DNA of 64,000 nucleotides, from the IMG/VR virus record IMGVR_UViG_3300032007_000001, one strand, 5' to 3'. The stretch comes from a virus. Its lineage: Duplodnaviria; Caudoviricetes. The translations under genes were made by a program, and so were the position numbers. Below are positions 19,043 to 39,458 of this stretch, one piece after another (position 1 is the stretch's first letter; every line of letters starts with the position of its first letter). Below the pieces are notes generated by a model. It searched no databases. It was given only the letters and a program-made list of their open reading frames with translations, and had not been told where the DNA came from.

Positions 19043-19642
19043 TTATAAAACATTCATATAATTTCTAGCTTTTTCTCTTATAACATTTCCACCAGTTGAT
19101 GGGTCGTCATGATTTGATGTATAATATGGACTTTCAGCTGTTCCAAGTAATTGCAAATCCCAACGTTCGCAACCGTTGTTTGGACCATACAAATCATCTT
19201 CATCATATAAATTTTCGTTGTCTCCAGCTTCACCATGTGTCATAACATTATTAATGTTAATATCAATTTGCAATTCCTTGCATATTATTGCTATAACTTG
19301 AGCCAAAGTATCAATTTGAGTTTCTGTTGGAGGATTTTCTCCCAAATCATTTGTTGTGGCGCCAACAGCACAACAAAGTGATACCCCAATTGTACCTGTA
19401 TTTAGTTTCCATGTATGAGATAATACATCAGCCAAATTATATGTAGAAACAAAAATTTCTCCATCGCCAGTTATACTTATATGATATTCATCAAAAAGTT
19501 GGTCCCACCAACCAGCTGTCCAATGGAGTATAATTTTTGGACAATCTAATCCTGCATAATTTGCATTTTCGTATAATTCCTCTTTGCTATTACTAGCAAT
19601 TTCTCTAATTTCGTCTAATGTTACTTGTTGCATTGTCGACAC
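19043..19642 (-). CDS. N-acetylmuramoyl-L-alanine amidase (Amidase_2 type)
   Basis: IILHWTAG, YHISI, SHTWKLNTGTIGVSL, TETQIDTL, VMTHGEA and RWDL. Confidence 0.88.
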   Translation of the reverse strand: MSTMQQVTLDEIREIASNSKEELYENANYAGLDCPKIILHWTAGWWDQLFDEYHISITGDGEIFVSTYNLADVLSHTWKLNTGTIGVSLCCAVGATTNDLGENPPTETQIDTLAQVIAIICKELQIDININNVMTHGEAGDNENLYDEDDLYGPNNGCERWDLQLLGTAESPYYTSNHDDPSTGGNVIREKARNYMNVL

Positions 19643-19654
19643 CTCTTTTCTAAA

Positions 19655-22600
19655 TTAAAATTCCAATTGTATTTTTTCACTACCGCTTTCATCTTCATTT
19701 TCTATAATTGAAGTATTGACGCGCTTAGCAAATTCACTTTGATTCATTGCTTCTTCTATTTTTTTCATCATTTCTTCTGCATCTTTGCCATCTTTCATAA
19801 TGCCAAAAATTTGCACTGTTCCAACATTTTCTTTTTCTGCTTTTCTAATTGCATCTTGTTGGGCTTGTAATGACGCTTTTTGAGCATCCAATTTTTGTTG
19901 TTGTTCTAATATTGATTTTTGAGATTCAATAACAGCATTCATTTCTTCTGTTGAACGTGTTCCAGAACGATATTGTTCTCTTATTTGCTTTCTTTTTTCA
20001 TCAGCACTAACATAATTGCTTCCAGAAACAACATTCATGTTATTGGAAAGTCCACCATAAGTTGGTGTTTTTCCAAGATATTTTGAAATGCTATTATAAA
20101 TACTGACATTGTTATTGAATTGTTCTATTGCTGTCATCGGTTTTGGAGGTTTGAATTGCAATTTTCCACTACCTGCTTGTGCACTTACATTAACTCCAAG
20201 TGCTCTTAAACCAGTTCCAATAGCGTCAAGCCAACCAACATTCGTTCCATTCTGGTCATTTGCCGCACCGGCTGGGCAATATTTCCTTTGAATAGCACCG
20301 ATTGTTTTAATGCCTTCATCAATATAATCTTCTTTTAACAAAACAGCTGCTCTTGTAATATTTTCTTCAACAGAAGAATCAACATGGTCATCCATTAAGC
20401 TATAAACATTATACGGTTCTCCATTACCCAATATTCCAGAAGTATCTCCGCCAAATCCATTTTCTGCATATGTAATGGCAGCAAAAAATGCTGGGTCAAT
20501 TCCATATTTACGTGCTGTATCAATAATAAATTGAGCTTTTCCTTTTAATACACCTTGTAAATGTGGTTCTAATTCTGCAGCTGTTATACCAGAATCAACA
20601 GTTACGTCATAATTACCAACATAACCACCGAGGCCAGACATTAATGGATTTGCTACAGTACCATCAGTTCTTGTTAACGGTTGTCTACCACCAGTTGGTC
20701 TTGCTTCTGGTCTATTATCATTACCAGACCAATTTATATCTACGTGAACATTTCCAGTTCCTTCGTCTTCGATAATTGCCGCATAACCATTTGCATGACA
20801 CCATTGAATTATCCATTCCATATCATCTGAGACAACGTCGGTCTTCCAACCAGTATGATGACTATATTCACCACCAGCATGAACAAATGTTTCGGCACCA
20901 CCAGTCATTTCAATTAATTCTCCGCCGTGTGCATCCTTATACGCTCTAGCTAATGCATTCATACCAGCAATTGATTCAGGACGAAGCGTAGACCACTTGG
21001 TTAATTCATCTTCCCAATCATGATTATGCAACATAATGCTTCTATCTAAAGAAGATGAATTTTCTAATCCAATTTGTTGTCTGTTATTATAATTTTGATT
21101 AACGTAATTCATTAAATCTGAATTAACAGATGGCTCATTTTTAACTACACCAGCAATATGTTGCCAGAGTTCGGTTGCTCCTCCAGCTGTCATATTTTTA
21201 AGTTCAAAATTAATAATATCGTCATCTGTCATATCTGGATTCGAAGCATATTTGGGATTTTTCTTTTTTGCCCATTCTAATACATTTCTCTTTATTCTTT
21301 GAGCAAACGGAGTATCTTTACCTGCCAATTCTCTCAAGTAAGCAGCTTCATTTTCCCAATATTGTTTATCTGTACTTCCAGCATTAGGATGATAATAATA
21401 ATTAGCCAAATGAGTGTATAAAATATTTAATTCATCATCATCTTCATAATTATTTGCATACGTTTCAAAGAATTTACCTAATATGTTATTATCAGACATT
21501 TTACTATCTAAAACGGCTGTGTTTTGATTTATAGCTCTTCTGTTTATTGCCAATGCCTGCATCAGTTGTTTTAATGTAACGTTTTGGTCTTGCAACTGTT
21601 TGACCATTTCTTTTAATATCTTTTTCTGTGTATCATTTAATTTACTTAAGTCTATTCCATTATCTTTTAAGTATGTTCTTAAAAATTCTCCTTGGTCCGT
21701 TTCAGATTCAATAACTTTCATAATGTCAATTCCTCTAATTTCGGAATTTTCATTCATGCAAGCTACCCAATCCGCTGTTGCTTCATCAAATTTTTCTCCC
21801 ATACCAAGATAATCTTTTATGGCATCTCCGCCTTTGCCACCTAACCAGCCACCGACCATGCTACCTAACACAAATCCAACACCAGGAATTGGAATTAATA
21901 CCTGTCCAATTGCGCCACCAATAGCGCCACCGGCTACTGATGTACCAGTACCAATTGCAACTCTTGCTAATCGTTCTTTCCAAGAACGTTGATTGCCAGA
22001 CATTGCATCTCCAAATTCTCCAATGGTTTCGCCAAGAGCCGATAACATCCAATATTCTCTTCCAAGATTTCTTGCACCAGAAGCAATGCTTTTCATCATG
22101 CTTGGGTCAAGATTCCTGAGCGCGCTCCAATTTGTTGAAAATGCATTTTTTGTATTTCTCAACGAAGATATAATTTGATTACCAGTACCAGTTTTTAATG
22201 CTCCCCCAAATTTTCTAATATCATCCCAAGAATTTAATCTTATATCACTTAAACTAGAATTAAAAGTACGTTTTAATTGGTTTACAATTTCAACTGGTAC
22301 TTTTCCTTCCATTTCACTGGCTCTAGCTAATTGTGACATTAATTTATTAGGAAGCTTTCTAAAATGACGCAAATCTCCTCTTTTTAGTGACATCCAAAGT
22401 GCATGACGAACGCCACCACCAGCGGCAGAAAGAGGAGCCAAAACATTTCCAATATATGGAGACGCCATATATATTGCACCAGCACCAAGACCAAGATTGA
22501 TTGCATAATTCATAAAATCCGATTCATCTTCGTTGCCTTCCATGGAATGCATTATTTCATCATAATTTGCAATCTGTACTTTCGCTCTACCGGATTTCAT

Positions 22601-25600
22601 AAATTGAATAAATCCAGTATGATTGTCTTGCATTGATGGTGTTCCTTCATCAACATTTTCTTCAGCTTCGCCACGCTTATTAAGCCAATATAATGTCGCT
22701 GCTGAGGCTCCAGCTAATGCCAAACCAGTCCAACCTTTCCCGCCACCAGTTGGACGTGATTTTGTAACCAAATTTTTAACCTGGTTCATTGCACCTTTAC
22801 CCATATATTTAATGCCTTGATATCCAGCACCAAGAGCAAATAAAGTCGTGCCAAGACCAAGAATTGGATTGTTCCCGATAGTTCTTGTAATATTTTGTAC
22901 TGTTTTGTTGTTTGCTAATTCATTTAACCAATGCGCAATCTTTCCTGCCCATTCTGGAAGTTTTTCAAGCAATTCATTTATTTGTTTTACTGCGCCTTCC
23001 AACAATGGATTTATTTTTGTTTGCCAAATATATGCCAAACGCATTAATGCATCTTCTCTTTCAGCTACCATTAATTGCGTTTTTGCTAATTGCGAAGCCA
23101 TTATGGCTAATTCTTTATCAGCATCTGATATTGAATCAGCTAAATCTATTTTTTTCTTTTCGTCTCTTTCTTTTTTACCAACTAAAAATTCTTTTATTTC
23201 ATCAGTTTTTCCTTCTTGCTTCATCGCTGTCAATTGTGCAATTTCTTTTTCAGAATACCCATCTTGTTTTAATAGATTCTGAAAATTATATAAAGAAAGA
23301 CTATTATTTCCTCCTAAGAAATTATCAAACATGGTATATTTTGCTAACATGGCATTTCCCATGTTTTCTTTCCAATCTCCAACTTGGTTGCCATTTCTAT
23401 CCATGAATATGCGACCACGAAGCATTGCGGAATACATTCCTCCGCCCCAACCTGACATCATTCCCCAATACATGGATTGAGACGTATTTTTACCAAAATT
23501 CAATTCTATTTGAGATGTTTTTATCATTAAATTAACAGCATCTGTCATATTCATTCCAGATTGTGTGGCAGAAGCAATAACATCGGTAGCTTTTTCAGCA
23601 TCAATACCCAATTCTCTTGCTCTTGTTACCATACTCTTAATATTTTCAAAAAACATCTTAGTAGACATACCGGATGATTTTGCCTGTTCAACCATATTCG
23701 CTATAATTGTAGCTGTTGTTTTAGCATCTTGTCCAGAATCTTTATAGAAATATTTGATTAAAAAGTCAAAATCATTATTATCCAAACCACTTGTTTCTTT
23801 CAATGAGAATAAATTTTCAGCAAAGAAAGACATGTCGCTTCTATTAGCTTCTGGTGTTGAATTATATCTGCCACCAATATTTCTAGCTAATGACATATAA
23901 AATTTTGTTGGAGCGTCTGCACCAATCATAGCGCCAGAAAGGTATTGATAATATCTACCAGTGTTATATATACGACTCAAATTAGCATTTGAAGCAATAT
24001 CTGCACCAAGAGATATGTCTGTTCTTGCCGCTTGATACATTAACATATCATTTGATACTGCTTTTGAAACGCTATCCTTGAATAATCCTCCTAATGATAG
24101 CATATTGGATAATCCCATTACACCAAATATGCTAAGCAAGAAAGATTTTCCGCCACCCAAAAATCCACCGATTTTTGAAGCCATCGTTAAAATGTTTTCG
24201 CCATTTTTTAAGTCGTTTATTTCATTATTTCTTTGAACTAGTTCTTCATTTAATTTTTTAACTTGTTCTATATCGTCTTTATCTAAATTAAGAATTTGCA
24301 TTGCATTAAGAACTTGCAATGTATTATTAATTTGTTGCTGAATTTCTTTTTGTTTTAAGTCAAGAGAACTTTTATCTACCTTGAAAAAATTTGATAATTT
24401 ATTTGGAATGGTTCTATCCAATACATTTCTTGCATCCAAACCGACAGAATGAGAAATAGAACGAGTAAGATTTCCAATTGTTTTTGTATTTGTTAAACCA
24501 CTTATTTGTCCTTGACGTTTTGTTATGTTTTGTCTTGTATATAATGATACCTTAAATTTATTTATTTTATCATTCCTTGCGGTTTCTGTTTCAGCATGCA
24601 ATATATCATCAATATTCATCCCGGTAGGTTGAATTTGAGAAATAAAGTGTTTTGCAATATCATTAGCACTTAATATACTTTCTTGCGAGGCTCCAGCTCT
24701 TAACGTTTTATTAAAATTTGCATTGCTTTGTTCTATCATATCCACAACAGTATATGACATATTATCCAAAGCTATCGTTGACGTTTGTACTGGACTTGCT
24801 ATTTTTTTCCCTTTTGTTTCAAAAGTACTTACATTTTTTCTTATATCTTGTAAATTTTCAACATTTTGATATGCTTTTAATGTTTGGTCATATCCCTTAA
24901 CAGCATTCTCAAGATTTGAAAATTTTCTATTAGAAATTTGATTAAGAATATTATTTGATTCTTTTATTTGTTCATCTATATTATCTATTACTTTTTTTGC
25001 TGAAATATTGGGTTCGTTTTGAATATCTTTTAATTCTTCAAATAATTTCTCTAATTTTGCAGTAGAAATTTCCTTATTATCCAATTCCTCAATGCCAACT
25101 TGAAAATCTTTAGATAAATCAAAGGTTACAAGTGACTTAATATCATTTATATTTTTAGATATTCCGCTTTTGAAAACGTCAAAAGATGCAGAAGACATTT
25201 GTGGTTCATTTTGATTTTGTAAATCACCACTTAATCCTTGCATATCTTTTTGTGCATTTTCAACCTTGCTTTGAGATAAGCGTATTCTATTAATGCAATT
25301 TTCACAATGACGTTTTAATTCATTAGAATCACTATTGTTCATTGCTGAAATCAATTTATTTTTGAATTCCGATATTGAACTTAAAACATCTATGTTTGTT
25401 TCTTTTGTTTCTATTTTTGTATTTGATAATTTTCTTAAATGACTGAATAATTGATTATATGCACTTAATTCAAATGAAGTATGTTGTACAGAATTAAGAT
25501 TACATGTTTCTTTACTTGCATACTCTAATGTTGTTGCTACTTCACCTAATTGTTTTACTGTTTCTTTATCTTCAAAATCGCAGGTGACTAAAAGATTGGT

Positions 25601-25660
25601 AACTTGCAATAATAAATCATTAAATTGATTAAAATTTCTTTCTAATACTTGTACATCCAA
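19655..25660 (-). CDS. Tape-measure-like protein A with M15-like peptidase and glucosaminidase/lysozyme-like domains
   Basis: 2001 aa, helical with Gly-rich hydrophobic blocks; SHHTGWKTD...HVDI and ARKYGIDPAFFAAITYAENG...IQRKYCP. Confidence 0.8.
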   Translation of the reverse strand: MDVQVLERNFNQFNDLLLQVTNLLVTCDFEDKETVKQLGEVATTLEYASKETCNLNSVQHTSFELSAYNQLFSHLRKLSNTKIETKETNIDVLSSISEFKNKLISAMNNSDSNELKRHCENCINRIRLSQSKVENAQKDMQGLSGDLQNQNEPQMSSASFDVFKSGISKNINDIKSLVTFDLSKDFQVGIEELDNKEISTAKLEKLFEELKDIQNEPNISAKKVIDNIDEQIKESNNILNQISNRKFSNLENAVKGYDQTLKAYQNVENLQDIRKNVSTFETKGKKIASPVQTSTIALDNMSYTVVDMIEQSNANFNKTLRAGASQESILSANDIAKHFISQIQPTGMNIDDILHAETETARNDKINKFKVSLYTRQNITKRQGQISGLTNTKTIGNLTRSISHSVGLDARNVLDRTIPNKLSNFFKVDKSSLDLKQKEIQQQINNTLQVLNAMQILNLDKDDIEQVKKLNEELVQRNNEINDLKNGENILTMASKIGGFLGGGKSFLLSIFGVMGLSNMLSLGGLFKDSVSKAVSNDMLMYQAARTDISLGADIASNANLSRIYNTGRYYQYLSGAMIGADAPTKFYMSLARNIGGRYNSTPEANRSDMSFFAENLFSLKETSGLDNNDFDFLIKYFYKDSGQDAKTTATIIANMVEQAKSSGMSTKMFFENIKSMVTRARELGIDAEKATDVIASATQSGMNMTDAVNLMIKTSQIELNFGKNTSQSMYWGMMSGWGGGMYSAMLRGRIFMDRNGNQVGDWKENMGNAMLAKYTMFDNFLGGNNSLSLYNFQNLLKQDGYSEKEIAQLTAMKQEGKTDEIKEFLVGKKERDEKKKIDLADSISDADKELAIMASQLAKTQLMVAEREDALMRLAYIWQTKINPLLEGAVKQINELLEKLPEWAGKIAHWLNELANNKTVQNITRTIGNNPILGLGTTLFALGAGYQGIKYMGKGAMNQVKNLVTKSRPTGGGKGWTGLALAGASAATLYWLNKRGEAEENVDEGTPSMQDNHTGFIQFMKSGRAKVQIANYDEIMHSMEGNEDESDFMNYAINLGLGAGAIYMASPYIGNVLAPLSAAGGGVRHALWMSLKRGDLRHFRKLPNKLMSQLARASEMEGKVPVEIVNQLKRTFNSSLSDIRLNSWDDIRKFGGALKTGTGNQIISSLRNTKNAFSTNWSALRNLDPSMMKSIASGARNLGREYWMLSALGETIGEFGDAMSGNQRSWKERLARVAIGTGTSVAGGAIGGAIGQVLIPIPGVGFVLGSMVGGWLGGKGGDAIKDYLGMGEKFDEATADWVACMNENSEIRGIDIMKVIESETDQGEFLRTYLKDNGIDLSKLNDTQKKILKEMVKQLQDQNVTLKQLMQALAINRRAINQNTAVLDSKMSDNNILGKFFETYANNYEDDDELNILYTHLANYYYHPNAGSTDKQYWENEAAYLRELAGKDTPFAQRIKRNVLEWAKKKNPKYASNPDMTDDDIINFELKNMTAGGATELWQHIAGVVKNEPSVNSDLMNYVNQNYNNRQQIGLENSSSLDRSIMLHNHDWEDELTKWSTLRPESIAGMNALARAYKDAHGGELIEMTGGAETFVHAGGEYSHHTGWKTDVVSDDMEWIIQWCHANGYAAIIEDEGTGNVHVDINWSGNDNRPEARPTGGRQPLTRTDGTVANPLMSGLGGYVGNYDVTVDSGITAAELEPHLQGVLKGKAQFIIDTARKYGIDPAFFAAITYAENGFGGDTSGILGNGEPYNVYSLMDDHVDSSVEENITRAAVLLKEDYIDEGIKTIGAIQRKYCPAGAANDQNGTNVGWLDAIGTGLRALGVNVSAQAGSGKLQFKPPKPMTAIEQFNNNVSIYNSISKYLGKTPTYGGLSNNMNVVSGSNYVSADEKRKQIREQYRSGTRSTEEMNAVIESQKSILEQQQKLDAQKASLQAQQDAIRKAEKENVGTVQIFGIMKDGKDAEEMMKKIEEAMNQSEFAKRVNTSIIENEDESGSEKIQLEF

Positions 25661-25724
25661 TCTTTTTCACCTCTTTTTACAATTACTCTAAAATAAGAAT
25701 AAAAAAAACAAACGCAATAAAAAC

Positions 25725-25750
25725 AAAAAGCCGCTAAAAAGCGGCTTTCT
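25725..25750 (-). terminator. Terminator between the short chaperone and TMP-A
   Basis: AAAGCCGC-taaaaa-GCGGCTTT; on the minus strand it is followed by a U-run. Confidence 0.8.
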
Positions 25751-25763
25751 TTTTAAGAAAATT

Positions 25764-26114
25764 TTACTTCTTTTCTTCTAATTCTTTTTCTTTCTTCGCT
25801 CTTTCTACATCATATAAACGATACAGTGTTGAAGTAATGAAAGGATTAACTCTATCAAACAAAGCATTTTTATCATCTTGTGATAACACTTCATCATTAA
25901 TAGATACCAAAGCTTCTTTCATTGTTTCGGCTTGCATTTTGAACATGCGAGATACCATATCGTTATCACTAGAATTTTCAAGAGTAGCTGTATGTTCTTT
26001 TGAATTAAGAATCTTAAATGTCCACTTCTTATCAAATCTATTGATTTCTATCTGACCAGTACCCAATGATACGATATCTTCTATCATTTTCTCTACATCG
26101 TTTACGTTTTTCAT
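25764..26114 (-). CDS. Tail assembly chaperone, short (gpG-like) form
   Basis: 116 aa, paralogous to the N-terminus of 38444..39343 (FDKKWTFKILNSKEH vs FDKTWVFRTLSPQEH; EALVSIND vs KALLSING); lies next to tape-measure genes. Confidence 0.6.
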   Translation of the reverse strand: MKNVNDVEKMIEDIVSLGTGQIEINRFDKKWTFKILNSKEHTATLENSSDNDMVSRMFKMQAETMKEALVSINDEVLSQDDKNALFDRVNPFITSTLYRLYDVERAKKEKELEEKK

Positions 26115-26193
26115 TGAAAAATCAGTCCTTTACATATTTCTGCTAATTTAATATAGATAAAACGCACAACTATAATATTTATCCAAACATTTT

Positions 26194-32100: not shown

Positions 32101-32115
32101 TGCAGACATAGACAT
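26194..32115 (-). CDS. Tape-measure-like protein B with lytic transglycosylase and CHAP/NlpC-like domains
   Basis: 1973 aa; AIMGQESGGDY...SGASGAFQIMPENW...AIAWYGG and GTVGCVEAAT...RGDVLVY...QHVNIADG..IYGNSS. Confidence 0.82.
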   Translation of the reverse strand: MSMSAVKAQKILSNKMNVLEGQIEKTKSSLLETIEKLTENKAKQELGMLIEWLDQTISLVSDAKKLIDVEQLVKQDISAIQEIEKTLDSAFLVLKEEFNESMHTGLDTSIVDSLQASLQQIANKKDDVANSIAKVSDHVGSFIDDRKVSALADKISSDQTKFFDAMPKFANGTKIDYDVKTKKLNIEKIIRDLEKSTSELQHSHEELQTPKRKIDERFLDDSIVLLRGISDVHENVKNLKEKLIDFKSEDKTNEVMLDYISSVKELSDGVREKINHLKTKDGSNKYLKKFLEVSHKLDDIFSKGTEALKEVMDEKTDYDSLTDDAKKKIQELDRLIEKIPEEIEANTKLLQFSELDEINFSHEAFKNQLKYIKQGGMLDDEVKNDLSKIGVSSKLYSDVFMIPNTNIMNEKFYANNLDMSRTLYETDNSLKEHMHEFDELFNNGIVSDESLSKIVEGMGGTLLKASEQQIGLINQFNVINNFNQSDIKVLDIYDKNLDKLINNYSIIINQLERVNVDSPYLKQFKEIRKKLADSKERINDIKTASKSFVDTMKDFFSSSKTFFAMVAGSTAMMMGGNSILDLITKAPSDVINRMQQLGLANYNLSRTDIAHGAPINRESNDALSYRASQAYYDLTYGSMDFPFVQNLYMNLYNNVGGNRFNTISQNQADMRYMATQLAADKELFGVSDASITKFVTSFYRDLGLSAEDTVKHFRKMEMMAIQNNVSVDTLADIIAPLAKNYREMGFSEMRVTGIMGSFSETTNLLIQDIGSIIASTGKAASGWQATSSKNWGKNMFFGMLTGESSAADAVTSALIPIDRFGNINNEYYDKMVDRIFAQATMFGEINDNVGQMTFVDRLRENGYSEKDSVELLGIAQTQGIDALKEKLKSIDQAKDPNAPIASMENYVAALGTAANELSEVQKLEAKYMSSINRIAHMLHVNFNDSLSDIVKKLTEKVEEFYNKMSELISKFLESKLGKKAWEFFENHPVASLLMLYTGGRIAKYVGTKLLKNLASLPMKLLTSAPATNAEKSLVTNVISHLDGLGRGQKTMLLAAIFAGATTLQDVIAEHSAKSEEQKLDEFLRSGDAKVQLVDKDKNRLIGGAAALALAAVTGYSLFKGRGKLGGLKNMFSRNAGKMGKLSKAQRRREAMARAGKLVERTTWRSAGKNFGTNLLMNVAFEGFFGDGDMDLSEIGKDTLIMSGSELAGEIGMGALATVLATKFHVKNPAQFINTFRRGGAFVGSMAPFALDYLSPSVAEASPLEMEGQDSSQRQMLANYYQTYLNQNMALNRNFGIMDERSAQNFGSMSPLSEDEELLRNHEDKKESLFVQSNTFGEAAMALGLSNREFSSLVSISLANHGMDWRKMNDDQQRLWLDKYKEFKKMYDDDQAAMFLASRSLKNNPFNTPELRKKIREALTKEWEDNTVKANWFAKKAQGLSGEDKDKYEMLANYYYHMDENPEDEDGFWFKQANNYHEMVKNYEIGNIAKILGEVYNGEALQVISASELKKAYSMLALSLKDQGELNDYIAANTEAKMKAMMGGFSLGGSSAGIEGVDAFMRAIMGQESGGDYDLINSDSGASGAFQIMPENWPYWAEAAGLGSGAPMTPENQNYVARYKMLEYYRKFGNWRDVAIAWYGGEGAVSYSEEEKSRVQSWDGTEYPSINEYADSVMRRMGVAGSGSLSGGSSGGGGATSYFSIDNGVLTGGNDLLEQGYQRYAGVTMDNGTVGCVEAATKIGAYYNSFLKEELDKGVVGVEQLANDANARGLLQVYNGSNVQRGDVLVYMTDDGSDYQHVNIADGAGGIYGNSSGRNMVVHDDEYYKDPTYVIKTGGGSSMYSPGQMLNLPQGKPKDDRPLQEQVNDMSKIAEYASGGKVTYGGLTDNMNVDPTQSYQSVDEKRKEIMGNMGMSETEIKARMDNVMEKLSSVSELLKTEPKLTEKPKDKSTLVKIIQEIAEEFMDDVEIVSDSAIA

Positions 32116-32142
32116 AGTATATCAGCTCCTAAAAATATAAAT

Positions 32143-32175
32143 AAAAAAAGAAATGGCATAAAAACCATTTCTTTT
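32143..32175 (-). terminator. Terminator between TMP-C and TMP-B
   Basis: AAAAGAAATGG-loop-CCATTTCTTTT followed by a U-run on the minus strand. Confidence 0.7.
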
Positions 32176-32182
32176 AATTTTT

Positions 32183-35100
32183 TTATTGTGGAGCCACAGC
32201 TTCTTCCATAATTTGATGAGATTCTTCGGAGTTTCTAACATAATTGCCATATACATTTTCATGCACTTTGCTCATTGCATACGTCATGGCATTTATAACA
32301 TATGCTTTAGATACTCCTCCACCAATAACATTAAGATTAACGTTAACATTATTTTTAGAATCTATATCATTTTGTTTTTTCCAGTCTTCTTCAGCTCTTT
32401 CTGCATCTGACGTATCATATCTACCAGCACTAGAAGAATATGCATTTTCAGCACTTTGAGCTGCTCTATCTGTTGCTTCCATAGCGGCTTCATTGAACCA
32501 TGTTGTTTTTCCAGTATATCCGTTTTCATCCCTGAATTTCTTTTCCATTTTTTCAATCATTTCTCTACCAGAAGAATGATATTGTACCATTTGACCGGTT
32601 TTTTCATCATATGAAAAGAATCCTTGTTGATTGAAACCATATAAATCCTTATCTGTAACTCCAGAATTAAGATAGAAATCATCCAATACTCCTTGCGGAG
32701 TCATAAAACGTTCTCTTTCTCTTCCTGACGCCGTTAATCCAGTAAGCATCATTCTGCCAGTAGCAATTCTATTATCCCAACCATTTCTATTCGCAAATTC
32801 AAGTAAATTCTTTTGTTGCGTTCTAACTTGGTCTGTTGCTGTTTGTAATGCTTTTGATGGGTCTGCTAAACTTTTTATTCTTTCTTCTGGTGTTTGATTT
32901 TGATTTGATTGTTGTTGTGTTTGACTAGCTATATTAGATGCTGCTGGTATGCCATTGATTGCATAATTATTTAAGTCTGGATTTTCTACAATTTGACCAT
33001 TTTTGGTCATTTCAAAATACATTTGGTCTCCAACTGTATCGCCAATATATTCTCCAGCTTTTATTGCTGCACCTTCAGCAAATCCAGAAACATCACCAAG
33101 ATTACCATATTTAGCAATAATATTGTTGCCATGATTAACTTCTACAACGCCACCAAGTTTTTCATCTTGATATGCTTTTAATACATTACCAGCGCCGATT
33201 GTACTGATTTTAGTTCCAGCATCAACGCTATATGTATTACCCATAATGCCGGCTTCTTTATTAACACCGGATAAAAGTTCTGCACTTGCAATGCCACTAA
33301 ATAATGGAAGTTTTTTAATGCCGGTCATATTTTCATTTGTTTTTTCGGCATTATCAACGTTATCTTTTACTTCTTTATCATTTATTGTAATTTTTTTAGG
33401 ATAATTTTCTGCAGCATGTTTACCAATTTCTTTAGCAGTTGTTTCTGTATGAGGAGCCAACAAAGTAGACAAATCTGAATGAAGATTTGCACTAACGGTA
33501 CCACCCGTTTGTTTGTTCTTAAATTCATCAATTAATTTATCTGTTATATCTTTTGCTAATTTGTCTGTGTCTCCAGATAATCTATATTTTGCATTATCAC
33601 TAACAAGTTCATATATTTTATCATAAATTTTTTGATTATCTTTTAATTTTCCAGTATTTGTACCAGTATAATATTCCATATCTGATAAAGATTCATCATT
33701 TAATATATCAGCAAATTCTCCAGCTAAATTTTGTGATGCTTTATCTTTACCATCTTCGTAATAATCTCTTGCCGTTTGATATTTTCCTTTGAATTGAGCA
33801 TTATTCAATCCACTTTGTGATAATCCTCTATTTATTGCTTCTTTTAATAATTCTGGATTATCCAATGTTTGTTGTGTTAATTGTTGTTTTTGTTCACCAA
33901 CAATATCACCAGCAACAATCGCAGCTGTTAAATCGCCATAACCTCTTGTTTTCAATTCTTTGAAAATTTGGTCCATATATTGTTGTTGGTCCTGCGTCAA
34001 TTTGGTCATGGTAGTACCATGTTTTTTCAATTGTTCTTCAGCCGCTCTAGCTCTATTATCATTACTATTAATTAAGCTATTTGTATCGTCTGTATATTTA
34101 TCTGATGCCCATTTAGATGCGTCTAAATAATCTTCACCCATCTTTTGGCCATCGTTATCGCCGATACCAAAAGCATCTTTCAAATAATCTCCAGCTTTAT
34201 CTCCTAAGAAACCACCAATAGCCATACCAGCCATTGTGCCAAGTGGTCCCCCAAGGCTTCCGATTGCACCACCAAGAACTGAACCAGCTGTAGCGGAGCC
34301 ACCAGAAATTAAGAATCTACCAAATCTTTCTCCTAATGTAAATTGATCAGGATTATTCATATATCCGCCAATTTCATTAAATCCAGCACCTATAAAGTTT
34401 GCTAATGCATTACCTTTAGCAAACGTTCCAAGTGTAGACATTGGAGCAGAAAGCGAACCACTTTTTGCCATTCCAATAATTCCACCAAGGAATCCTCCAC
34501 CAGCCGATACCATATCACCTAATGGAGCATTTGATGTTTGTGAAGAAAATTGTTGAGATAAACGTTTTTCTATTGCTGCTCTATCCAAATTATTAACTGA
34601 AACTTGAGATTCTGGACTAACGGTATCTAATCTTGTAGCAGCTTCTTGAATTCTTTGATTTGCTTCTTCAATTGAGCGTGCCATTCGTTCTTCTTCACTA
34701 TCGCCAGCTTCGCTTGGAGCTATTTGTTCAAATTTTGGCATAGCCCCAGTTCCGCCTTTTCCATTTTCAATTTGAACTTTTACATCGCCACTTGAAAATG
34801 TACTTTGCAGAGAAGAAATAACATCTCCAATATTGCTTGCTAAATAAGCACCGCCAGCAACCGCTGCGGCACCAAGAGCCAATTTTTTTCCTCTTGACAT
34901 ATTTTTAATGAATTTTGCTCCAGTACCAAGAGCTTTGGGGTCTCTTGTTATTCCATATTTTGCAAAATCTGTTGCTACATTTAATGCACCACGTCCAGCT
35001 GTATATGCTAGAGCTCCGCCAGCTAATAATCCTGGAAAATTGGTTGTAGCCAAATTTCCAAGAGCTTGTCCGGTTTCAGTACCAGCAAACTTTGTAAATG

Positions 35101-38100
35101 CTTCAATTACATGTTCAACAGCACCTACAACAGTGTTCAGACCTTTACCAAACGTATCAACTAAACTCTTTAATGGTTTATCTAAATCTTTTTCAATAAC
35201 TTCTCCAAGGTGCTTTTCTGCCATTGCTACAGCCGCCTGAGCTTGCGTTACTGCAGATAATTGAGAACCAGATGCTCTTATCTTTTCTGTAGCTTCTCTG
35301 GTTGCGTCAGTTAATCTTTGTTCTATTCCTTCTTTTTCTTCGTCTGCTTTCTTTAATAAATCAGCAAAACGTTCCATATCATTATTAAGATATGCGTCTG
35401 TAAGCATTGATACTGATGTTGGTGAATAACCGCGCTTACTTAATTGTTCAGAAACAAGCCATGCACCAAGTTGAGAACCTGGACCACCGCCAATCATTCC
35501 CATTAATCCTGTTTCAGCAAACAAACGTTGCGCCATCATTGGATAATAGCCTTCCATTGGCTTACCGTTGCTGTCAACCATTTGACGCCCAGAAACTATA
35601 TTTCCAAATATATCATTGCCTTGGCCAGACATCATTGCATAGAAAGCACTTGCTCCTGGGTCATTAAATCCCATTCCTCTTGCAGCATGAGCAGTATCTG
35701 AAAGAAGACGAGAAGCATCTTCTTGTCTTACGCCTTTGCTGACCATAGCTTTCATAGCGCCTTCTACTTCTTCAGCAGTTAAGCCATATTCACGCAATCC
35801 ACCAATTAAATTTGACATAGCATTGATATAATTGCTAACTGGAATACCTGCTTGCTGAGCAGTTTGCGCCATACGTACCATCATATAACTCGCTTCATCA
35901 GCTGCCATACCCATATCTTTATAGGTATTTTTCATAAATGATGCCACGTCATTATCACTTAATTGATATTGTTGAGCTATTGCAAATGTACTTTCCGTTA
36001 TACGAAACATATCATTTTGAGCATCGGTTGGTGAAGAACCATAATGTCCACCAACACCACGTCTCAAAGCTAAATTAAAGTTTTTAACTTGGTCAAGTCC
36101 AATTTGTCCGCCAGACGCTTTGAAATATTCATCGGCCATGTTATTTATCATATATGATGCTTGGCCACGATTCAAATCTGCACCCATAGCAAAATCAGCA
36201 CGTGCCAATTCATAACGAGATTTACCCATGTTACGATATTGATTAAAAGCGTTAGACCCAATTTTTGTCAAGTTGCTTAATGTTGGCGCAAGCATACCAA
36301 GACCCATCATTCCCATACCAGAGACAAAAGCACCATGTACAGAACTGAGTCCAGATACTGCCGATTTGACCATATCTCCTAAGTCAAAACCATCATCTTT
36401 TATATCTTTAATTTTTTCGGCTGTCTTCGATAATTCAGCTTCTAAACTTCTAAGATGTTCTAATGATTTATCTTTGGGGTCAAATTGAGAAATAGCTGCT
36501 ATGGCGGCACGTAAAGATTCCAATGCTGCATCAGATGACTTTAAGAACGAATCAAGCATTTGCTTGTCGTCCTCATCCAATAACTTATATTGTCCTCTTT
36601 TAAGATTTATGTTATTTAATCCTGCTAAATGAGCTTGGGCTGAATTTGTTGCAGCTGTATCTAAAAAGCCAATTTGAGCTCTAGCGGCTTCAACATCTCC
36701 AGCTTCTTTATATATTGGAAGATATTGCAGCGATTTACTAAGTTCAGATGCAGATACGCTACTAGCTCTAAATGCGTCTTGCATCTGATTTTGGAACTGT
36801 CCTCTATTTCCGAGGAAATTTCCAGCAACAGAACGATAAAACATCGGCAATGCATTTCTATCAGCTTTTAATGAACCAGCTGTAAAATGCATCATCGCGT
36901 CTTGCAATAAATTTTGTTCACTTGAAATTGCTTGGCCACCTTTTTCATAAAATCCTTGTGCCAAAGCAATGTTTGACTTATTATATTGTTCTGTTCCAGG
37001 CTGATTAGCTCTTGCTATATTTTCAACTAATTTTCTATTTGATTCTTCTATTAAGCTACTTAATTTTCCTTGGAAAATATTTTTTACATCATCAGCAGTA
37101 GACTTTAAGTTTTCTACTTCTTCTTCCAAGTAATGTATAGCATTTCTAAAATCGTCAGTGCCAGCTCTTTCACCAAGAACCTTGAAAGTATTTTTCATAT
37201 TTTCTTGGTTAACGATAGCTGTCTTTGCAAAACGGTCCATTTCGGATATTAGAGGAATTAGGTCATCTAAACCTAAATCTCCAACGTCTTCGTTATTTAA
37301 GTTTCCTATTAGTTCTGTTATTTGCTTAGAAGCATTTAATAGACTGGCTTGATTATCTGGATTTAATAGATTTTGTAAATTTTCTATATTATTATCTTTT
37401 ACTGCCTTTATAATTTCACTAATAGCAGAACTTGTATTGGCTGTAGTATAACCAGATAATTTTTCAAAAAAATCTTTTGCTACTTTTTCAGTAATTCCGT
37501 AATTCTTAAAAACTTCTTTATATTGAAGCGTTAATAAATCAATTAATTCTTTATTTTGTTCTGCAATTTCATTTGCTGTATCTAATTGTTTGGTTTGACT
37601 TGCTAATACTTCAGTTGTTTTATCTACACTATCTGCAACGTTTATTGTCGATTCGGATAAATTTTCAGCTGTTTTTGCAGTCTGTTGAATTGTACCTACG
37701 TATTGCTCTAATATATTTATTAAATTTTTTACTTCTTCGGGTTTGCAACTTTGAGAAACTACATCAATTAGATGACTTACGTCTTCCATTTGCGTTAAAA
37801 ATTTCTCAACAAATTCACTAGCTTTTGATTTTTCCAAACCTTCATTTAATGCAGTAATTATTGCGTTAACATCAACGCTGTTTATATCATCTTTTATTTT
37901 TTGTGTTGCATTATTAACTGTTTGAACTATCTCTTGTACTTTACTAGAAACACCAATATTTCTAAAATCATTAATTGCATTTTTAAGTTGCGTCACTTTA
38001 TCAGCAAGAGTTGAGATAGCTGAAACCGCATTTTGTGGAACGTCTTTTCCTTGGTCAATAAGTTTTTGCATCTTATTGATTATTTCGTCCATTTGTCGTT

Positions 38101-38431
38101 CGCATCTATCTACAGTTTCACTCATATCTCTAACGGACGAAATCATTCTAGTTTGTTGAGAATTCAAACCATTTGAAGGAGTTGCAATTTGAGAAGTACT
38201 TTCCATAGTTACAACAGAACCATGGTCTTCTCCAGAACGACCTGTAGATTCATTATTCGTTACACCAAGTTTAATTGAACCGTCGGCATTAAAATTGCTA
38301 GAATTTGGAGTAATATACCGACCACGTTGTTGCGTAGCTATATCATTTGCTTTTTGGTCAAAATTATCAGCAATTGTTCCTATTGTAACGTTTTTATTAC
38401 TTGTATTAAATTTTAACAATGTATTTTCCAA
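32183..38431 (-). CDS. Tape-measure-like protein C with degenerate M23 peptidase domain
   Basis: 2082 aa; GGVVEVNHGNNIIAKYGNL...IKAGEYIG...QMYFEMTKNGQIVENP; follows the long tail chaperone. Confidence 0.82.
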   Translation of the reverse strand: MENTLLKFNTSNKNVTIGTIADNFDQKANDIATQQRGRYITPNSSNFNADGSIKLGVTNNESTGRSGEDHGSVVTMESTSQIATPSNGLNSQQTRMISSVRDMSETVDRCERQMDEIINKMQKLIDQGKDVPQNAVSAISTLADKVTQLKNAINDFRNIGVSSKVQEIVQTVNNATQKIKDDINSVDVNAIITALNEGLEKSKASEFVEKFLTQMEDVSHLIDVVSQSCKPEEVKNLINILEQYVGTIQQTAKTAENLSESTINVADSVDKTTEVLASQTKQLDTANEIAEQNKELIDLLTLQYKEVFKNYGITEKVAKDFFEKLSGYTTANTSSAISEIIKAVKDNNIENLQNLLNPDNQASLLNASKQITELIGNLNNEDVGDLGLDDLIPLISEMDRFAKTAIVNQENMKNTFKVLGERAGTDDFRNAIHYLEEEVENLKSTADDVKNIFQGKLSSLIEESNRKLVENIARANQPGTEQYNKSNIALAQGFYEKGGQAISSEQNLLQDAMMHFTAGSLKADRNALPMFYRSVAGNFLGNRGQFQNQMQDAFRASSVSASELSKSLQYLPIYKEAGDVEAARAQIGFLDTAATNSAQAHLAGLNNINLKRGQYKLLDEDDKQMLDSFLKSSDAALESLRAAIAAISQFDPKDKSLEHLRSLEAELSKTAEKIKDIKDDGFDLGDMVKSAVSGLSSVHGAFVSGMGMMGLGMLAPTLSNLTKIGSNAFNQYRNMGKSRYELARADFAMGADLNRGQASYMINNMADEYFKASGGQIGLDQVKNFNLALRRGVGGHYGSSPTDAQNDMFRITESTFAIAQQYQLSDNDVASFMKNTYKDMGMAADEASYMMVRMAQTAQQAGIPVSNYINAMSNLIGGLREYGLTAEEVEGAMKAMVSKGVRQEDASRLLSDTAHAARGMGFNDPGASAFYAMMSGQGNDIFGNIVSGRQMVDSNGKPMEGYYPMMAQRLFAETGLMGMIGGGPGSQLGAWLVSEQLSKRGYSPTSVSMLTDAYLNNDMERFADLLKKADEEKEGIEQRLTDATREATEKIRASGSQLSAVTQAQAAVAMAEKHLGEVIEKDLDKPLKSLVDTFGKGLNTVVGAVEHVIEAFTKFAGTETGQALGNLATTNFPGLLAGGALAYTAGRGALNVATDFAKYGITRDPKALGTGAKFIKNMSRGKKLALGAAAVAGGAYLASNIGDVISSLQSTFSSGDVKVQIENGKGGTGAMPKFEQIAPSEAGDSEEERMARSIEEANQRIQEAATRLDTVSPESQVSVNNLDRAAIEKRLSQQFSSQTSNAPLGDMVSAGGGFLGGIIGMAKSGSLSAPMSTLGTFAKGNALANFIGAGFNEIGGYMNNPDQFTLGERFGRFLISGGSATAGSVLGGAIGSLGGPLGTMAGMAIGGFLGDKAGDYLKDAFGIGDNDGQKMGEDYLDASKWASDKYTDDTNSLINSNDNRARAAEEQLKKHGTTMTKLTQDQQQYMDQIFKELKTRGYGDLTAAIVAGDIVGEQKQQLTQQTLDNPELLKEAINRGLSQSGLNNAQFKGKYQTARDYYEDGKDKASQNLAGEFADILNDESLSDMEYYTGTNTGKLKDNQKIYDKIYELVSDNAKYRLSGDTDKLAKDITDKLIDEFKNKQTGGTVSANLHSDLSTLLAPHTETTAKEIGKHAAENYPKKITINDKEVKDNVDNAEKTNENMTGIKKLPLFSGIASAELLSGVNKEAGIMGNTYSVDAGTKISTIGAGNVLKAYQDEKLGGVVEVNHGNNIIAKYGNLGDVSGFAEGAAIKAGEYIGDTVGDQMYFEMTKNGQIVENPDLNNYAINGIPAASNIASQTQQQSNQNQTPEERIKSLADPSKALQTATDQVRTQQKNLLEFANRNGWDNRIATGRMMLTGLTASGRERERFMTPQGVLDDFYLNSGVTDKDLYGFNQQGFFSYDEKTGQMVQYHSSGREMIEKMEKKFRDENGYTGKTTWFNEAAMEATDRAAQSAENAYSSSAGRYDTSDAERAEEDWKKQNDIDSKNNVNVNLNVIGGGVSKAYVINAMTYAMSKVHENVYGNYVRNSEESHQIMEEAVAPQ

Positions 38432-39343: not shown

Positions 39344-39458
39344 TCCTTTACAATTTTACTCTAATAATTAAATAAAGCTAAAAACAAAAAAAGTAATAGA
39401 AAAGTTACTTAAATTTAATGAGAATTTTAATATTCTCATTTTTTTCATCCTAAAACTA

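What the first reader, a model, noticed from the sequence alone, without database searches (positions are those of the whole stretch)
19655..38431. Three tandem paralogous tape-measure-like proteins: a candidate heteromeric or switchable tape measure
Seen: three ORFs of 2001, 1973 and 2082 aa (A, B, C) occupy the slot between tail chaperone and hub where one TMP normally sits. They share ordered motifs: YQAARTDISLGA / YNLSRTDIAHGA / YELARADFAMGA (Y542, Y602, Y740); FYKDSG / FYRDLG / TYKDMG; SGRAKVQ / SGDAKVQ / SGDVKVQ (S1023, S1085, S1214); and NGIDLSKLNDTQ / HGMDWRKMNDDQ / HGTTMTKLTQDQ. The distance from the first motif to SGxxKVQ is 481, 483 and 474 aa, and total lengths agree within about 5% despite deep divergence. 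Known: long-tailed phages usually have one TMP gene, whose product forms a homo-oligomer (trimer or hexamer) that sets tail length. Inference: length-matched paralogues fit a 1:1:1 (or 2:2:2) heteromeric tape measure. The alternative is a phage that builds distinct tail types of similar length.
Basis: partly seen in the sequence, partly recalled or inferred. Interest (0 to 1): 0.9.

Follow-up and report, generated by a model that had tools for sequence, protein, structure and literature searches.

The report
Three conserved tape-measure genes in megaphage
A 504-kb uncultured gut phage, and every relative whose gene neighbourhood was complete enough to check, carries three ancient copies of the tail "tape measure" gene plus a two-gene chaperone, so its tail ruler may be built from three different chains, though this is not yet shown.

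Summary
Three minus-strand ORFs of 2001 (A), 1973 (B) and 2082 aa (C) are real paralogues, 23-24% identical (BLASTP E 2e-40 to 2e-24).

All three are tape measure proteins (TMPs):
- They are homologous to Bacillus phage G TMP gp183.
- They are the only three PhageMin_Tail hits in the 504-kb genome, though all are below Pfam's cut-off.
- They lie between tail assembly chaperone genes and tube-initiator/baseplate genes.

New findings:
- The order long chaperone, C, B, short chaperone, A is kept in at least seven diverged huge-phage lineages.
- A tree gives three orthologue clades, so both duplications are old and no copy was lost.
- The 116-aa ORF between B and A is a paralogue of the N-terminal domain of the 299-aa ORF. 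Together they replace phage G's frameshifted G/GT chaperone.
- Terminators whose position is conserved split the locus into three units.
- The cell-wall hydrolase domains differ between copies and are shuffled between genomes.

A 1:1:1 heterotrimer is my favoured reading (about 0.4) but is unproven. Length matching is loose (68-313 aa spread). The one complex prediction gave no verdict.

Twin TMPs have been noted in Staphylococcus jumbo phages, and this scan found twin TMPs before on other DNA. I class this as a new variant of a known kind.

The parts
38444..39343 (-). u: long (GT-type) tail assembly chaperone, 299 aa, one continuous ORF
   Evidence: Its N-terminal ~110 aa are paralogous to the 116-aa ORF (hhalign prob 99.2%, E 2.5e-19). 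Residues 123-287 match the frameshift-encoded part of phage G chaperone gp182 (BLASTP 1e-14). dN/dS is 0.076 against a close relative.
39347..39364 (-). 18-nt motif TTAGAGTAA-AA-TTGTAAA just upstream of u (candidate promoter or 5'-UTR element)
   Evidence: This motif type occurs only twice in the 64-kb window, here and upstream of A. Zero are expected in shuffles. It is not kept exactly in relatives.
32183..38431 (-). TMP-C, 2082 aa
   Evidence: phrog_167 tape measure 3.9e-8. PhageMin_Tail 24-29 bits, below the 33.2 cut-off. Homologous to phage G TMP gp183. Orthologues in at least 7 lineages.
35699..36016 (-). PhageMin_Tail-like part of the conserved helical core of C (aa 806-911)
   Evidence: AF2 on the core gives pLDDT 76-91 for aa ~730-920 as a stack of short helices.
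34169..34297 (-). Gly-rich hydrophobic motif of C (aa 1379-1421)
   Evidence: Matches phage Mu TMP gp42 residues 593-635 (9ki1_g; phmmer 5.5e-5, profile 2.2e-9). A close relative has a 22-nt deletion here.
32987..33241 (-). Peptidase_M23 domain of C (aa 1731-1815), apparently non-catalytic in this genome
   Evidence: Pfam 37.5-42.1 bits, above the 28.7 cut-off. The HxxxD and HxH metal ligands are replaced (NTYSVD, GDQMYFE), while orthologues E_C and P0006 keep them.
32146..32175 (-). Intrinsic terminator-like hairpin plus T-run between C and B
   Evidence: 12-bp stem. The same hairpin is present in close relative W2. A hairpin of different sequence sits at the same place in relative J.
26194..32115 (-). 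TMP-B, 1973 aa
   Evidence: BLASTP to A 2e-40 and to C 2e-24. PhageMin_Tail 6.8e-4 in the genome scan. Forms its own orthologue clade (SH-aLRT 98).
27160..27441 (-). SLT lytic transglycosylase domain of B (aa 1559-1652)
   Evidence: Pfam SLT 29-33 bits, above the 21.3 cut-off. The clade profile hits the SLT part of Pa193 TMP gp41 (9b45) and Slt70. The E-S catalytic motif is present.
25764..26114 (-). s: short (G-type) tail assembly chaperone, 116 aa
   Evidence: The AF2 model (pLDDT 79) matches phage G gp181 (TM 0.74/0.75, E 4e-7) and gp182. The top PDB hit is the HK97 tail assembly chaperone 2ob9. 100% aa identity to the close relative at dS 0.48. Present between B and A in every lineage.
25725..25750 (-). 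Intrinsic terminator-like hairpin plus T-run between s and A
   Evidence: 11-bp stem with 5 GC pairs. Identical in W2. A hairpin of different sequence sits at the same place in J.
25676..25691 (-). 16-nt motif TTAGAGTAA-TTGTAAA just upstream of A
   Evidence: It is the second and only other copy of the motif found upstream of u.
19655..25660 (-). TMP-A, 2001 aa
   Evidence: BLASTP to B 2e-40 and to C 5e-30. Forms its own orthologue clade (SH-aLRT 99). dN/dS 0.15.
20711..20893 (-). A, aa ~1590-1650: candidate LAS-type metallopeptidase motif (H-x6-D ... H-x-D)
   Evidence: Read from the sequence and conserved in E_A and P0020. In relative J the same motif type sits in paralogue C instead. There is no Pfam hit, so the assignment is inference.
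20264..20611 (-). A, aa 1684-1799: lysozyme-like muramidase/glucosaminidase domain
   Evidence: phrog_25820 endolysin 7e-9. The clade profile hits soluble lytic transglycosylases and goose-type lysozyme. Orthologue E_A carries Pfam Glucosaminidase.
19043..19642 (-). 199-aa N-acetylmuramoyl-L-alanine amidase gene after A
   Evidence: Pfam Amidase_2 4e-9 and phrog endolysin 9e-37. Present in W2 but absent at this place in J, E and S.
17224..19020 (-). 598-aa tube-initiator-like protein
   Evidence: Pfam Phage_tail_tube_init 3e-4, below the cut-off. Same position, with the same faint or weak hit, in relatives.
12658..17211 (-). 1517-aa central baseplate / hub-type protein (function inferred from position)
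   Evidence: phrog_14367 1.6e-89, plus weak tail-protein and endolysin matches. Syntenic 1266-1670-aa genes in relatives.
8694..10622 (-). Baseplate J-like wedge protein, which anchors the module as the baseplate of a contractile tail
   Evidence: Pfam Baseplate_J 1e-16 and phrog_6 2e-36.

Best explanation
The locus is the tail-ruler module of a rumen/gut megaphage with a contractile tail. The single tape measure gene has been replaced by three anciently diverged paralogues, transcribed in the order C, B, A. The frameshifted G/GT chaperone has been replaced by two separate genes: u (long, before C) and s (short, between B and A).

Shown:
- The three are paralogues and are homologous to TMPs.
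- The chaperones are identified by fold and by sequence.
- The whole arrangement is conserved in at least seven lineages, with three orthologue clades.
- All parts tested are under purifying selection.
- Terminators between C|B and s|A are conserved in position.
- The cell-wall hydrolase domains are different and are shuffled between paralogues and genomes.

Inferred:
- All three proteins are built into the tail lumen with help from u and s.
- Most likely one chain of each makes the canonical TMP trimer (A:B:C), anchored by its C-terminal modules in the hub.
- That trimer would set a tail of roughly 300 nm (about 0.15 nm per residue).
- After contraction it would be expelled, and the hydrophobic and Gly-rich segments would help form the trans-envelope channel.
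- Each chain would deliver its own wall-cutting or wall-binding domain, giving a division of labour among the three protomers.
For: TMP identity:
- BLASTP of each clade to phage G gp183 gives E 1e-14 to 1e-33.
- gp183 was detected in phage G virions (PMC12484599).
- PF10145 hits exactly these three ORFs in the 504-kb genome, and the core of C finds exactly three places.
- Hydrophobic segments lie at equivalent positions.
- The core is helical.

Chaperones. The chaperone profile finds exactly two copies in the genome.

Flanking tube-initiator and baseplate genes.

Obligate joint use:
- The order u-C-B-s-A is seen in W, W2, J, E, S, L027/L028, L029, L031 and L025.
- No lineage with enough flanking sequence lacks a copy.
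- The tree gives starred clades A, B and C, each with the same internal branching.
- dN/dS is 0.10-0.27 for all three.

Trimer logic: TMPs are trimers docked by their C-termini in the hub, as in phage Mu (PMC11915804). PDB entries 9ki1 and 9b45 each hold three TMP chains.

The C-terminal module of A and B is their best-conserved part outside the core (38% over 86 aa). This fits a shared docking site.

Total lengths covary across seven genomes: r(B,A) 0.94, permutation p about 0.006.

Jumbo-phage paralogues can form hetero-oligomers, as shown for the phiKZ fibres (PMC13250141).
Against: - There is no direct evidence of stoichiometry or of co-assembly.
- At 23% identity the chains could just as well each form homotrimers.
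- Length matching is loose. Spreads are 313 aa in lineage E and 182 aa in L027.
- The length covariation comes from the enzyme-bearing C-terminal part, not from the N-terminal spacer. It largely reflects one split between two major clades.
- The extreme C-termini differ between paralogues, which is awkward for three equivalent sites on a homotrimeric hub.
- Other jumbo phages carry two, not three, TMP-like genes (10.1101/2020.12.14.422802). The more distant lineage X shows two paralogues that are 37% identical to each other. The match between three genes and three chains may therefore be coincidence.
- In close relative W2, gene C is split by a 22-nt deletion. If that deletion is real, it argues against a strict need for an intact C.
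- Conserved terminators suggest the three genes need not be made in equal amounts.
Confidence: 0.4

Rival explanations
1. Three alternative rulers. Each paralogue forms its own homotrimer, so every burst yields three kinds of virions. Their tails have similar length but carry different wall-degrading warheads. This would be bet-hedging against variable host cell walls or growth states.
For: - The paralogues are only 23-24% identical, which would favour self-association.
- Each has the complete TMP architecture on its own.
- The enzyme payloads differ and are swapped often, as expected for host-range-type modules.
- Each gene sits in its own terminator-bounded unit, so separate control is possible.
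- Similar lengths fit one optimal tail length.
- Pairs rather than triplets in other jumbo phages fit this model better than a 1:1:1 trimer does.
Against: - Under this model each copy would be individually dispensable. Yet none has been lost in at least seven deeply diverged lineages.
- All three are under purifying selection.
- In this genome the M23 domain of C has lost its metal ligands. A tail type carrying only C would then have no evident active hydrolase.
Confidence: 0.2
2. One true ruler plus two TMP-derived cargo proteins. Only one paralogue measures the tail. The other two are derived 'tail lysin' or channel-forming proteins that ride in the lumen or hub and are injected.
For: - In Staphylococcus jumbo phages one of the two TMP-like genes is annotated as a tail lysin or tail lysozyme (PMC10638138).
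- Only C reaches notable scores for TMP models.
- Length matching is not strict.
Against: - All three keep the full-length architecture: N-terminal helical spacer, core, hydrophobic segments and C-terminal module.
- A and B, the supposed cargo proteins, are the pair whose lengths covary most strongly (r 0.94).
- A dedicated chaperone paralogue sits directly in front of A.
Confidence: 0.2
3. End-to-end ruler. Homotrimers of C, B and A stack head to tail in gene order and together measure a very long tail of about 900 nm.
For: Gene order C-B-A-hub could mirror spatial order. All three would be essential, which fits their strict retention. Very long tails with TMPs of several thousand residues are known from background knowledge.
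Against: - Only the sum of lengths would matter, so positive covariation and near-equal lengths are unexpected.
- A and B share a similar C-terminal module although they would dock on different partners.
- Each copy keeps its own hydrophobic channel segments and hydrolases.
- There is no known precedent.
Confidence: 0.07

Closest known systems
Bacillus phage G tail module: chaperones gp181/gp182 (G and frameshifted GT) and TMP gp183 ('tail protein with lysin activity', 2893 aa)
   Same: - It is the only cultured relative found.
- The TMP core is homologous to A, B and C.
- s matches gp181 in fold, and u matches gp182 in both its parts.
- The TMP carries hydrolase domains and was detected in virions (PMC12484599).
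- Genome sizes are similar (497 vs 504 kb).
   Different: Phage G has one TMP gene and makes its two chaperone forms by a programmed frameshift. Here there are three TMP genes of about 2000 aa, and the two chaperone forms are separate, diverged genes placed at different points of the module.
Twin TMP-like genes of Staphylococcus jumbo phages (MarsHill, Madawaska, Machias, DC4)
   Same: Two adjacent genes of about 1960-1990 aa with helical and transmembrane features and different hydrolase domains, one of them M23. They are described as 'two potential tape measure proteins' (10.1101/2020.12.14.422802; PMC10638138). Earlier notes of this scan report such twins on other DNA.
   Different: - They have two copies, not three.
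- No detectable sequence similarity to A, B or C was found in the phage collection.
- No chaperone paralogue between the copies has been reported.
- No conservation or phylogenetic analysis appears in those papers, and their role is untested.
Canonical homotrimeric TMPs, e.g. phage Mu gp42
   Same: A trimer fills the tube lumen and its C-terminus docks with hub and spike (PMC11915804). The Gly-rich motif of C aligns with Mu gp42 residues 593-635.
   Different: Mu has a single gene and therefore identical chains. It has no hydrolase domains and is 690 aa long.
TMPs with built-in muralytic domains (phiCbK gp95 with CHAP; TM4 TMP motif; T5 Pb2 from background knowledge)
   Same: A peptidoglycan hydrolase is fused to the ruler and acts after ejection (PMC3556154, which cites Piuri and Hatfull 2006). 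Residue count predicts tail length (1964 aa gives 295 nm).
   Different: There is one TMP per genome. Here up to five hydrolase-type domains are spread over three paralogous chains, and they are exchanged between paralogues across genomes.
Two-gene tail chaperone of Bacillus phage 0305phi8-36 (gp143/gp144)
   Same: Two genes share a domain and reproduce the G/GT relationship without a frameshift (PMC2147016).
   Different: There the two genes are adjacent and upstream of a single TMP. Here the short form sits between the second and third TMP genes and is only 21-27% identical to the long form's N-domain.

Membership tests
Tail tape measure protein (TMP) | Gene lies between the tail assembly chaperone gene(s) and the distal-tail / tube-initiator / hub genes | tested here: met
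   Order u(TAC)-C-B-s(TAC)-A-amidase-tube initiator-like-1517 aa-...-Baseplate_J. The same order is seen in relatives.
Tail tape measure protein (TMP) | Sequence homology to a recognised TMP | tested here: met
   All three clades align with phage G TMP gp183 over 250-730 aa of the core, E 1e-14 to 1e-33. C hits phrog_167 'tail length tape measure protein' at 3.9e-8.
Tail tape measure protein (TMP) | Match to Pfam TMP models above the curated cut-off (PF10145 PhageMin_Tail, PF20155 TMP_3) | tested here: inconclusive
   PF10145: C 24-29 bits, B 17.6, A 15.3, against a cut-off of 33.2. These are the only three hits in the genome. TMP_3 gives 16 bits for C. The database's precomputed domains list PF10145 for C and for P0023.
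Tail tape measure protein (TMP) | Long, mostly alpha-helical protein with internal hydrophobic / Gly-rich segments | tested here: met
   Hydrophobic segments lie before the core, around SGxxKVQ and at the Gly-rich motif, at equivalent places in paralogues and orthologues. The AF2 model of the core of C is all-helical. Only the core was folded. The N-terminal 540-740 aa were not.
Tail tape measure protein (TMP) | Protein length sets tail length; protein is present in the tail lumen as a trimer | not testable with these tools
   The phage is uncultured, and no particle, proteome or RNA data are available. The homologue gp183 was found in phage G virions (PMC12484599).
Tail assembly chaperone, G/GT type | TAC fold | tested here: met
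   The model of s (pLDDT 79) matches phage G gp181 (TM 0.74/0.75, E 4e-7), gp182 and several annotated TACs. The top PDB hit is HK97 TAC 2ob9 (prob 0.91, E 0.13).
Tail assembly chaperone, G/GT type | A short and a long form that share the N-terminal domain | tested here: met
   s (116 aa) aligns with the N-terminal ~110 aa of u (299 aa): hhalign prob 99.2%, E 2.5e-19. The C-terminal part of u is homologous to the T part of phage G gp182 (1e-14).
Tail assembly chaperone, G/GT type | Long form made by programmed -1 frameshift within one gene | tested here: not met
   u is one uninterrupted ORF covering both the G-like and the T-like parts. The short form is a separate gene 12 kb away. This is the same solution as in 0305phi8-36 (PMC2147016).
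Peptidase M23 (domain in C) | Pfam match above cut-off | tested here: met
   37.5-42.1 bits against a cut-off of 28.7. The profile hits M23 structures.
Peptidase M23 (domain in C) | Zn ligands and catalytic His (HxxxD ... HxH) | tested here: not met
   In this genome the positions read NTYSVD and GDQMYFE. Orthologues E_C and P0006 keep HxxxD and HxH. The domain here is probably non-catalytic, like the LytM domains of EnvC and SpoIIQ that appear among the PDB hits.
Lytic transglycosylase SLT (domain in B) | Pfam match above cut-off and catalytic Glu in the E-S motif | tested here: met
   29-33 bits against a cut-off of 21.3. 'GQESGG' is present. The profile hits Slt70 and the SLT part of Pa193 TMP.

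The most novel reading that the evidence does not exclude
The tape measure of this megaphage clade is an obligate A:B:C heterotrimer. It would be the first length ruler built from three different chains. It would be assembled by a chaperone pair that has itself been split into two genes, and each protomer would carry a different, exchangeable cell-wall-attacking or wall-binding domain.
Probability: 0.4. Interest if true: 0.85.

Novelty: new variant of a known kind. Interest (0 to 1): 0.62.

Why it matters
TMPs are treated as single-gene homotrimers that set tail length and open the way for DNA. A triplet kept intact through deep divergence, together with a matching split of the chaperone, points to one of two things. 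Either the ruler can be heteromeric, or one phage routinely builds several tail types. Either would change how tail assembly and host-wall penetration are modelled. It would also explain why TMP-like genes come in multiples in several unrelated jumbo-phage groups.

The system offers a direct test, because the three chains can be told apart. Co-expression with the two chaperones, or metaproteomics of rumen viromes, could settle TMP stoichiometry. The shuffled hydrolase domains are also a natural catalogue of tail-borne lysins.

Tried and rejected
- Complex prediction on the C-terminal modules (A 1835-2001, B 1845-1973, C 1875-2082) gave no verdict: score 0.35 against a control of 0.19. I do not use it either way.
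- Megablast of the 18.8-kb stretch and tblastn of the B core against cultured phages found nothing. Only the C core reached phage G.
- The search for related loci with the single proteins A or C found nothing. The 18-sequence alignment was too divergent to seed a scan. Clade alignments worked.
- phrog_167 on the whole genome gave one weak hit (2.9e-4) at window 59453-61492. Pfam shows this to be an SbcC/AAA_23-type ATPase, so I rejected it as a fourth TMP.
- Fold searches with the core model returned only generic helical repeats (designed repeat proteins, TAL effectors; best Z 8.8). That level is uninformative for helical models.
- Sequencing runs: no RNA holder is listed. Laying contigs of four runs showed only the probable source contig (bovine gut) and short fragments of relatives in sheep and bovine gut. 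It gave nothing on expression or stoichiometry, and the many 'joints' had sides of about 20 nt, which I treat as noise.
- Length covariation: nominally p 0.006. It is carried by the enzyme-bearing part and by one deep split, so I count it only as weak support.
- Comparing distances from the core to the N- or C-terminus, using the numbers, showed no consistent in-register pattern.
- Literature searches for multiple, duplicated or heteromeric TMPs: the 'two tape measure' hits were about chaperones. Only the Staphylococcus jumbo-phage remark was relevant.
- The upstream motif shared by u and A is not kept exactly in relatives, so I make no claim about its function.

Full report
**What is there**

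The window is positions 193438-257437 of a 504,279-bp IMG/VR virus record that CheckV rates as complete. It has about 30% G+C. On the minus strand lie three very long ORFs: C at 32183-38431 (2082 aa), B at 26194-32115 (1973 aa) and A at 19655-25660 (2001 aa).

They are mutually homologous well beyond chance. BLASTP gives A/B 2e-40 over 1086 aligned residues, A/C 5e-30 and B/C 2e-24, all at 23-24% identity.

**Why these are tape measure proteins**

- The core of each paralogue clade aligns with Bacillus phage G gp183 at E 1e-14 to 1e-33. gp183 is that phage's annotated TMP with lysin domains, and it was detected in phage G particles (PMC12484599).
- C hits phrog_167 (tape measure) at 3.9e-8.
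- Pfam PhageMin_Tail scanned over the whole genome hits exactly these three ORFs and nothing else. All three hits are below the curated cut-off, so I call formal Pfam membership inconclusive.
- The core of C also finds exactly three places in the genome.
- All three share one layout:
  - a poorly conserved helical N-terminal part of 540-740 aa;
  - a conserved core of about 480 aa;
  - hydrophobic and Gly-rich segments at equivalent positions;
  - a variable region with cell-wall hydrolase domains;
  - a C-terminal module.
- The AF2 model of the core is all-helical, with confident short-helix stacking for C residues ~730-920.
- The Gly-rich motif of C aligns with residues 593-635 of phage Mu TMP gp42.

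Downstream of A come, in order:
- an Amidase_2 gene;
- a tube-initiator-like gene;
- a 1517-aa hub-type gene;
- a sheath-initiator-like gene;
- a Baseplate_J gene.

The phage therefore has a contractile tail. Its sheath and tube genes lie about 100 kb away.

**The chaperones are duplicated too**

The 116-aa ORF between B and A (s, 25764-26114) looked anonymous to Pfam and PHROGs. It is in fact a paralogue of the first ~110 residues of the 299-aa ORF upstream of C (u, 38444-39343), with hhalign probability 99.2% and E 2.5e-19.

An AF2 model of s (pLDDT 79) matches phage G gp181 and gp182. These are the short and the frameshift-extended tail assembly chaperones that precede gp183 (TM 0.74-0.81, E 4e-7). 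The best PDB match is the HK97 tail assembly chaperone. Residues 123-287 of u are homologous to the frameshift-encoded part of gp182 (1e-14).

So u is a permanently fused GT-type chaperone and s is a free-standing G-type chaperone. These are the only two copies in the genome. A two-gene chaperone without a frameshift has been described for phage 0305phi8-36 (PMC2147016). What differs here is that the short form sits inside the array of TMP genes.

**Conservation**

Database and contig searches recovered the same order, u-C-B-s-A followed by the tube-initiator-like gene, in these sources:
- a close relative, W2;
- a 416-420-kb phage, J;
- a lineage on 67-178-kb contigs, E;
- a lineage on 56-281-kb contigs, S;
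- four further lineages: L025, L027/L028, L029 and L031, on contigs up to 318 kb.

In one further lineage (L018) the genes after s are unrelated and A is not adjacent. A more distant lineage (L012) has at least two TMP genes with s between them, and they are 37% identical to each other. A still more distant contig (L013) has a single TMP followed by a separate lysin gene.

A maximum-likelihood tree of 20 proteins, rooted on phage G, gives three well-supported orthologue clades (SH-aLRT 99, 98 and 100). Each has the same internal branching, with topology (C,(B,A)). This is the quick search, because the careful one did not finish. Both duplications therefore predate the divergence of these phages, and no copy has been lost since.

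Against the close relative, dN/dS is 0.15 for A, 0.10-0.17 for B and 0.13-0.27 for C. It is 0.076 for u. s has no amino-acid change at dS 0.48.

**Expression layout**

Terminator-like hairpins with T-runs lie between C and B (32146-32175) and between s and A (25725-25750). W2 has the same hairpins. Relative J has hairpins of different sequence at the same two places, which argues that they are functional. The locus is thus organised as [u-C], [B-s] and [A-amidase-hub...].

A 16-18-nt motif, TTAGAGTAA(N0-2)TTGTAAA, occurs only upstream of u and upstream of A. It is not kept exactly in relatives.

**Payloads**

| Paralogue (this genome) | Hydrolase-type domains |
|---|---|
| A | Candidate LAS-type metallopeptidase motif, plus a lysozyme-like domain |
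| B | SLT domain with its catalytic E-S motif, plus a weak CHAP-like region |
| C | M23 domain whose metal ligands are all replaced; two orthologues keep them |

Across genomes the same domain types appear in different paralogues. For example, the LAS-like motif is in A here but in C in lineage J, and C39_2-like peptidases are in A and B of J. The payload region is therefore modular and is exchanged.

**How it most likely works**

TMPs are trimers anchored by their C-termini in the hub (phage Mu, PMC11915804). All three paralogues, and both chaperones, are strictly retained. I therefore favour one chain of each forming the trimer, with the different hydrolase or wall-binding domains shared out among the protomers. 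Three further points fit this reading:
- The C-terminal module is the best-conserved region between A and B outside the core.
- Total lengths covary across seven genomes: r(B,A) 0.94, permutation p about 0.006.
- Paralogues forming hetero-oligomers has a precedent in the phiKZ fibres (PMC13250141).

I put this at about 0.4, for these reasons:
- Nothing shows co-assembly.
- Within-genome length spreads reach 313 aa.
- The covariation lies in the enzyme-bearing part and largely reflects one deep split.
- The extreme C-termini differ between paralogues.
- Other jumbo phages have two such genes, not three.
- W2 carries a 22-nt deletion that splits C.

Rivals:
- Three alternative homotrimeric rulers giving three tail types (0.2).
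- One ruler plus two TMP-derived injected proteins (0.2).
- End-to-end stacking giving a tail of about 900 nm (0.07).

**Novelty**

I found no paper describing three paralogous TMPs or a heteromeric TMP. 'Two potential tape measure proteins' are mentioned in passing for Staphylococcus jumbo phages, and the DC4 genome table lists adjacent 1990-aa and 1962-aa genes. Earlier notes of this scan report twin TMPs with different hydrolases in a 361-kb T4-like phage and in a Staphylococcus jumbo phage.

Multiplied TMPs are thus a recurring and little-studied feature of jumbo phages. New here are:
- the triplet itself;
- its demonstrated antiquity and strict retention;
- the coupled split of the chaperone;
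- the terminator-bounded units;
- the payload shuffling.

I class it as a new variant of a known kind. The probable source is a bovine gut metagenome, and fragments of relatives occur in sheep and bovine gut runs.

Noticed in passing
L024:8380-8620 (relative W2, sample ERZ1024293) vs window 34050-34290: In the close relative, gene C is split into ORFs of 1418 and 650 aa by a 22-nt deletion inside the Gly-rich motif. Both pieces still look selected (dN/dS 0.13 and 0.27). I cannot tell whether this is a real split gene, a defective variant or an assembly error.
   Followed up: partly
window 25764-26114 (s) vs L023:3724-4074: The short chaperone has no amino-acid difference from the close relative although synonymous divergence is 0.48. 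It is by far the most constrained protein of the module; its neighbours are 74-91% identical.
   Followed up: partly
G000:C1:338800-342366 (outside the window) vs L005:1208-4870 and L007:2861-6393: In relatives J and S the sheath gene and two tube-like genes lie a few kb upstream of the chaperone-TMP module. In this genome they are about 100 kb away, and divergently transcribed replication genes (helicase at window 40812-42242) abut the module instead. The sheath is 85% identical to J's, while the TMPs are only 35-52% identical.
   Followed up: partly
L005:6047-7339: An IS605 OrfB / Cas12f-like TnpB gene is inserted between the tube genes and the chaperone gene in the 420-kb relative J.
   Followed up: no
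L018:9912-19430: In another relative the third TMP gene does not follow the short chaperone. Instead there is an oppositely oriented block with PNKP-ligase/Hen1-type RNA repair genes and AAA/SMC-like genes. The module can therefore be broken at this exact point.
   Followed up: no
window 32987-33241: The M23 domain of C has lost all metal-binding and catalytic histidines in this genome but not in two orthologues. It may act as a wall-binding or enzyme-activating LytM-type domain. An Amidase_2 gene (19043-19642) is present only in this lineage and in W2.
   Followed up: partly
window 39347-39364 and 25676-25691: A near-identical 16-18-nt motif sits immediately upstream of the ribosome-binding sites of u and of A and nowhere else in the window. 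It is a candidate late promoter or translational control element.
   Followed up: partly
window 46138-47007, 47959-52023 and 59453-61492: Three other genes in the window: a radical-SAM protein gene, a 1354-aa fn3-containing protein, and an SbcC/AAA_23-type ATPase. The ATPase gave a spurious weak tape-measure hit.
   Followed up: no
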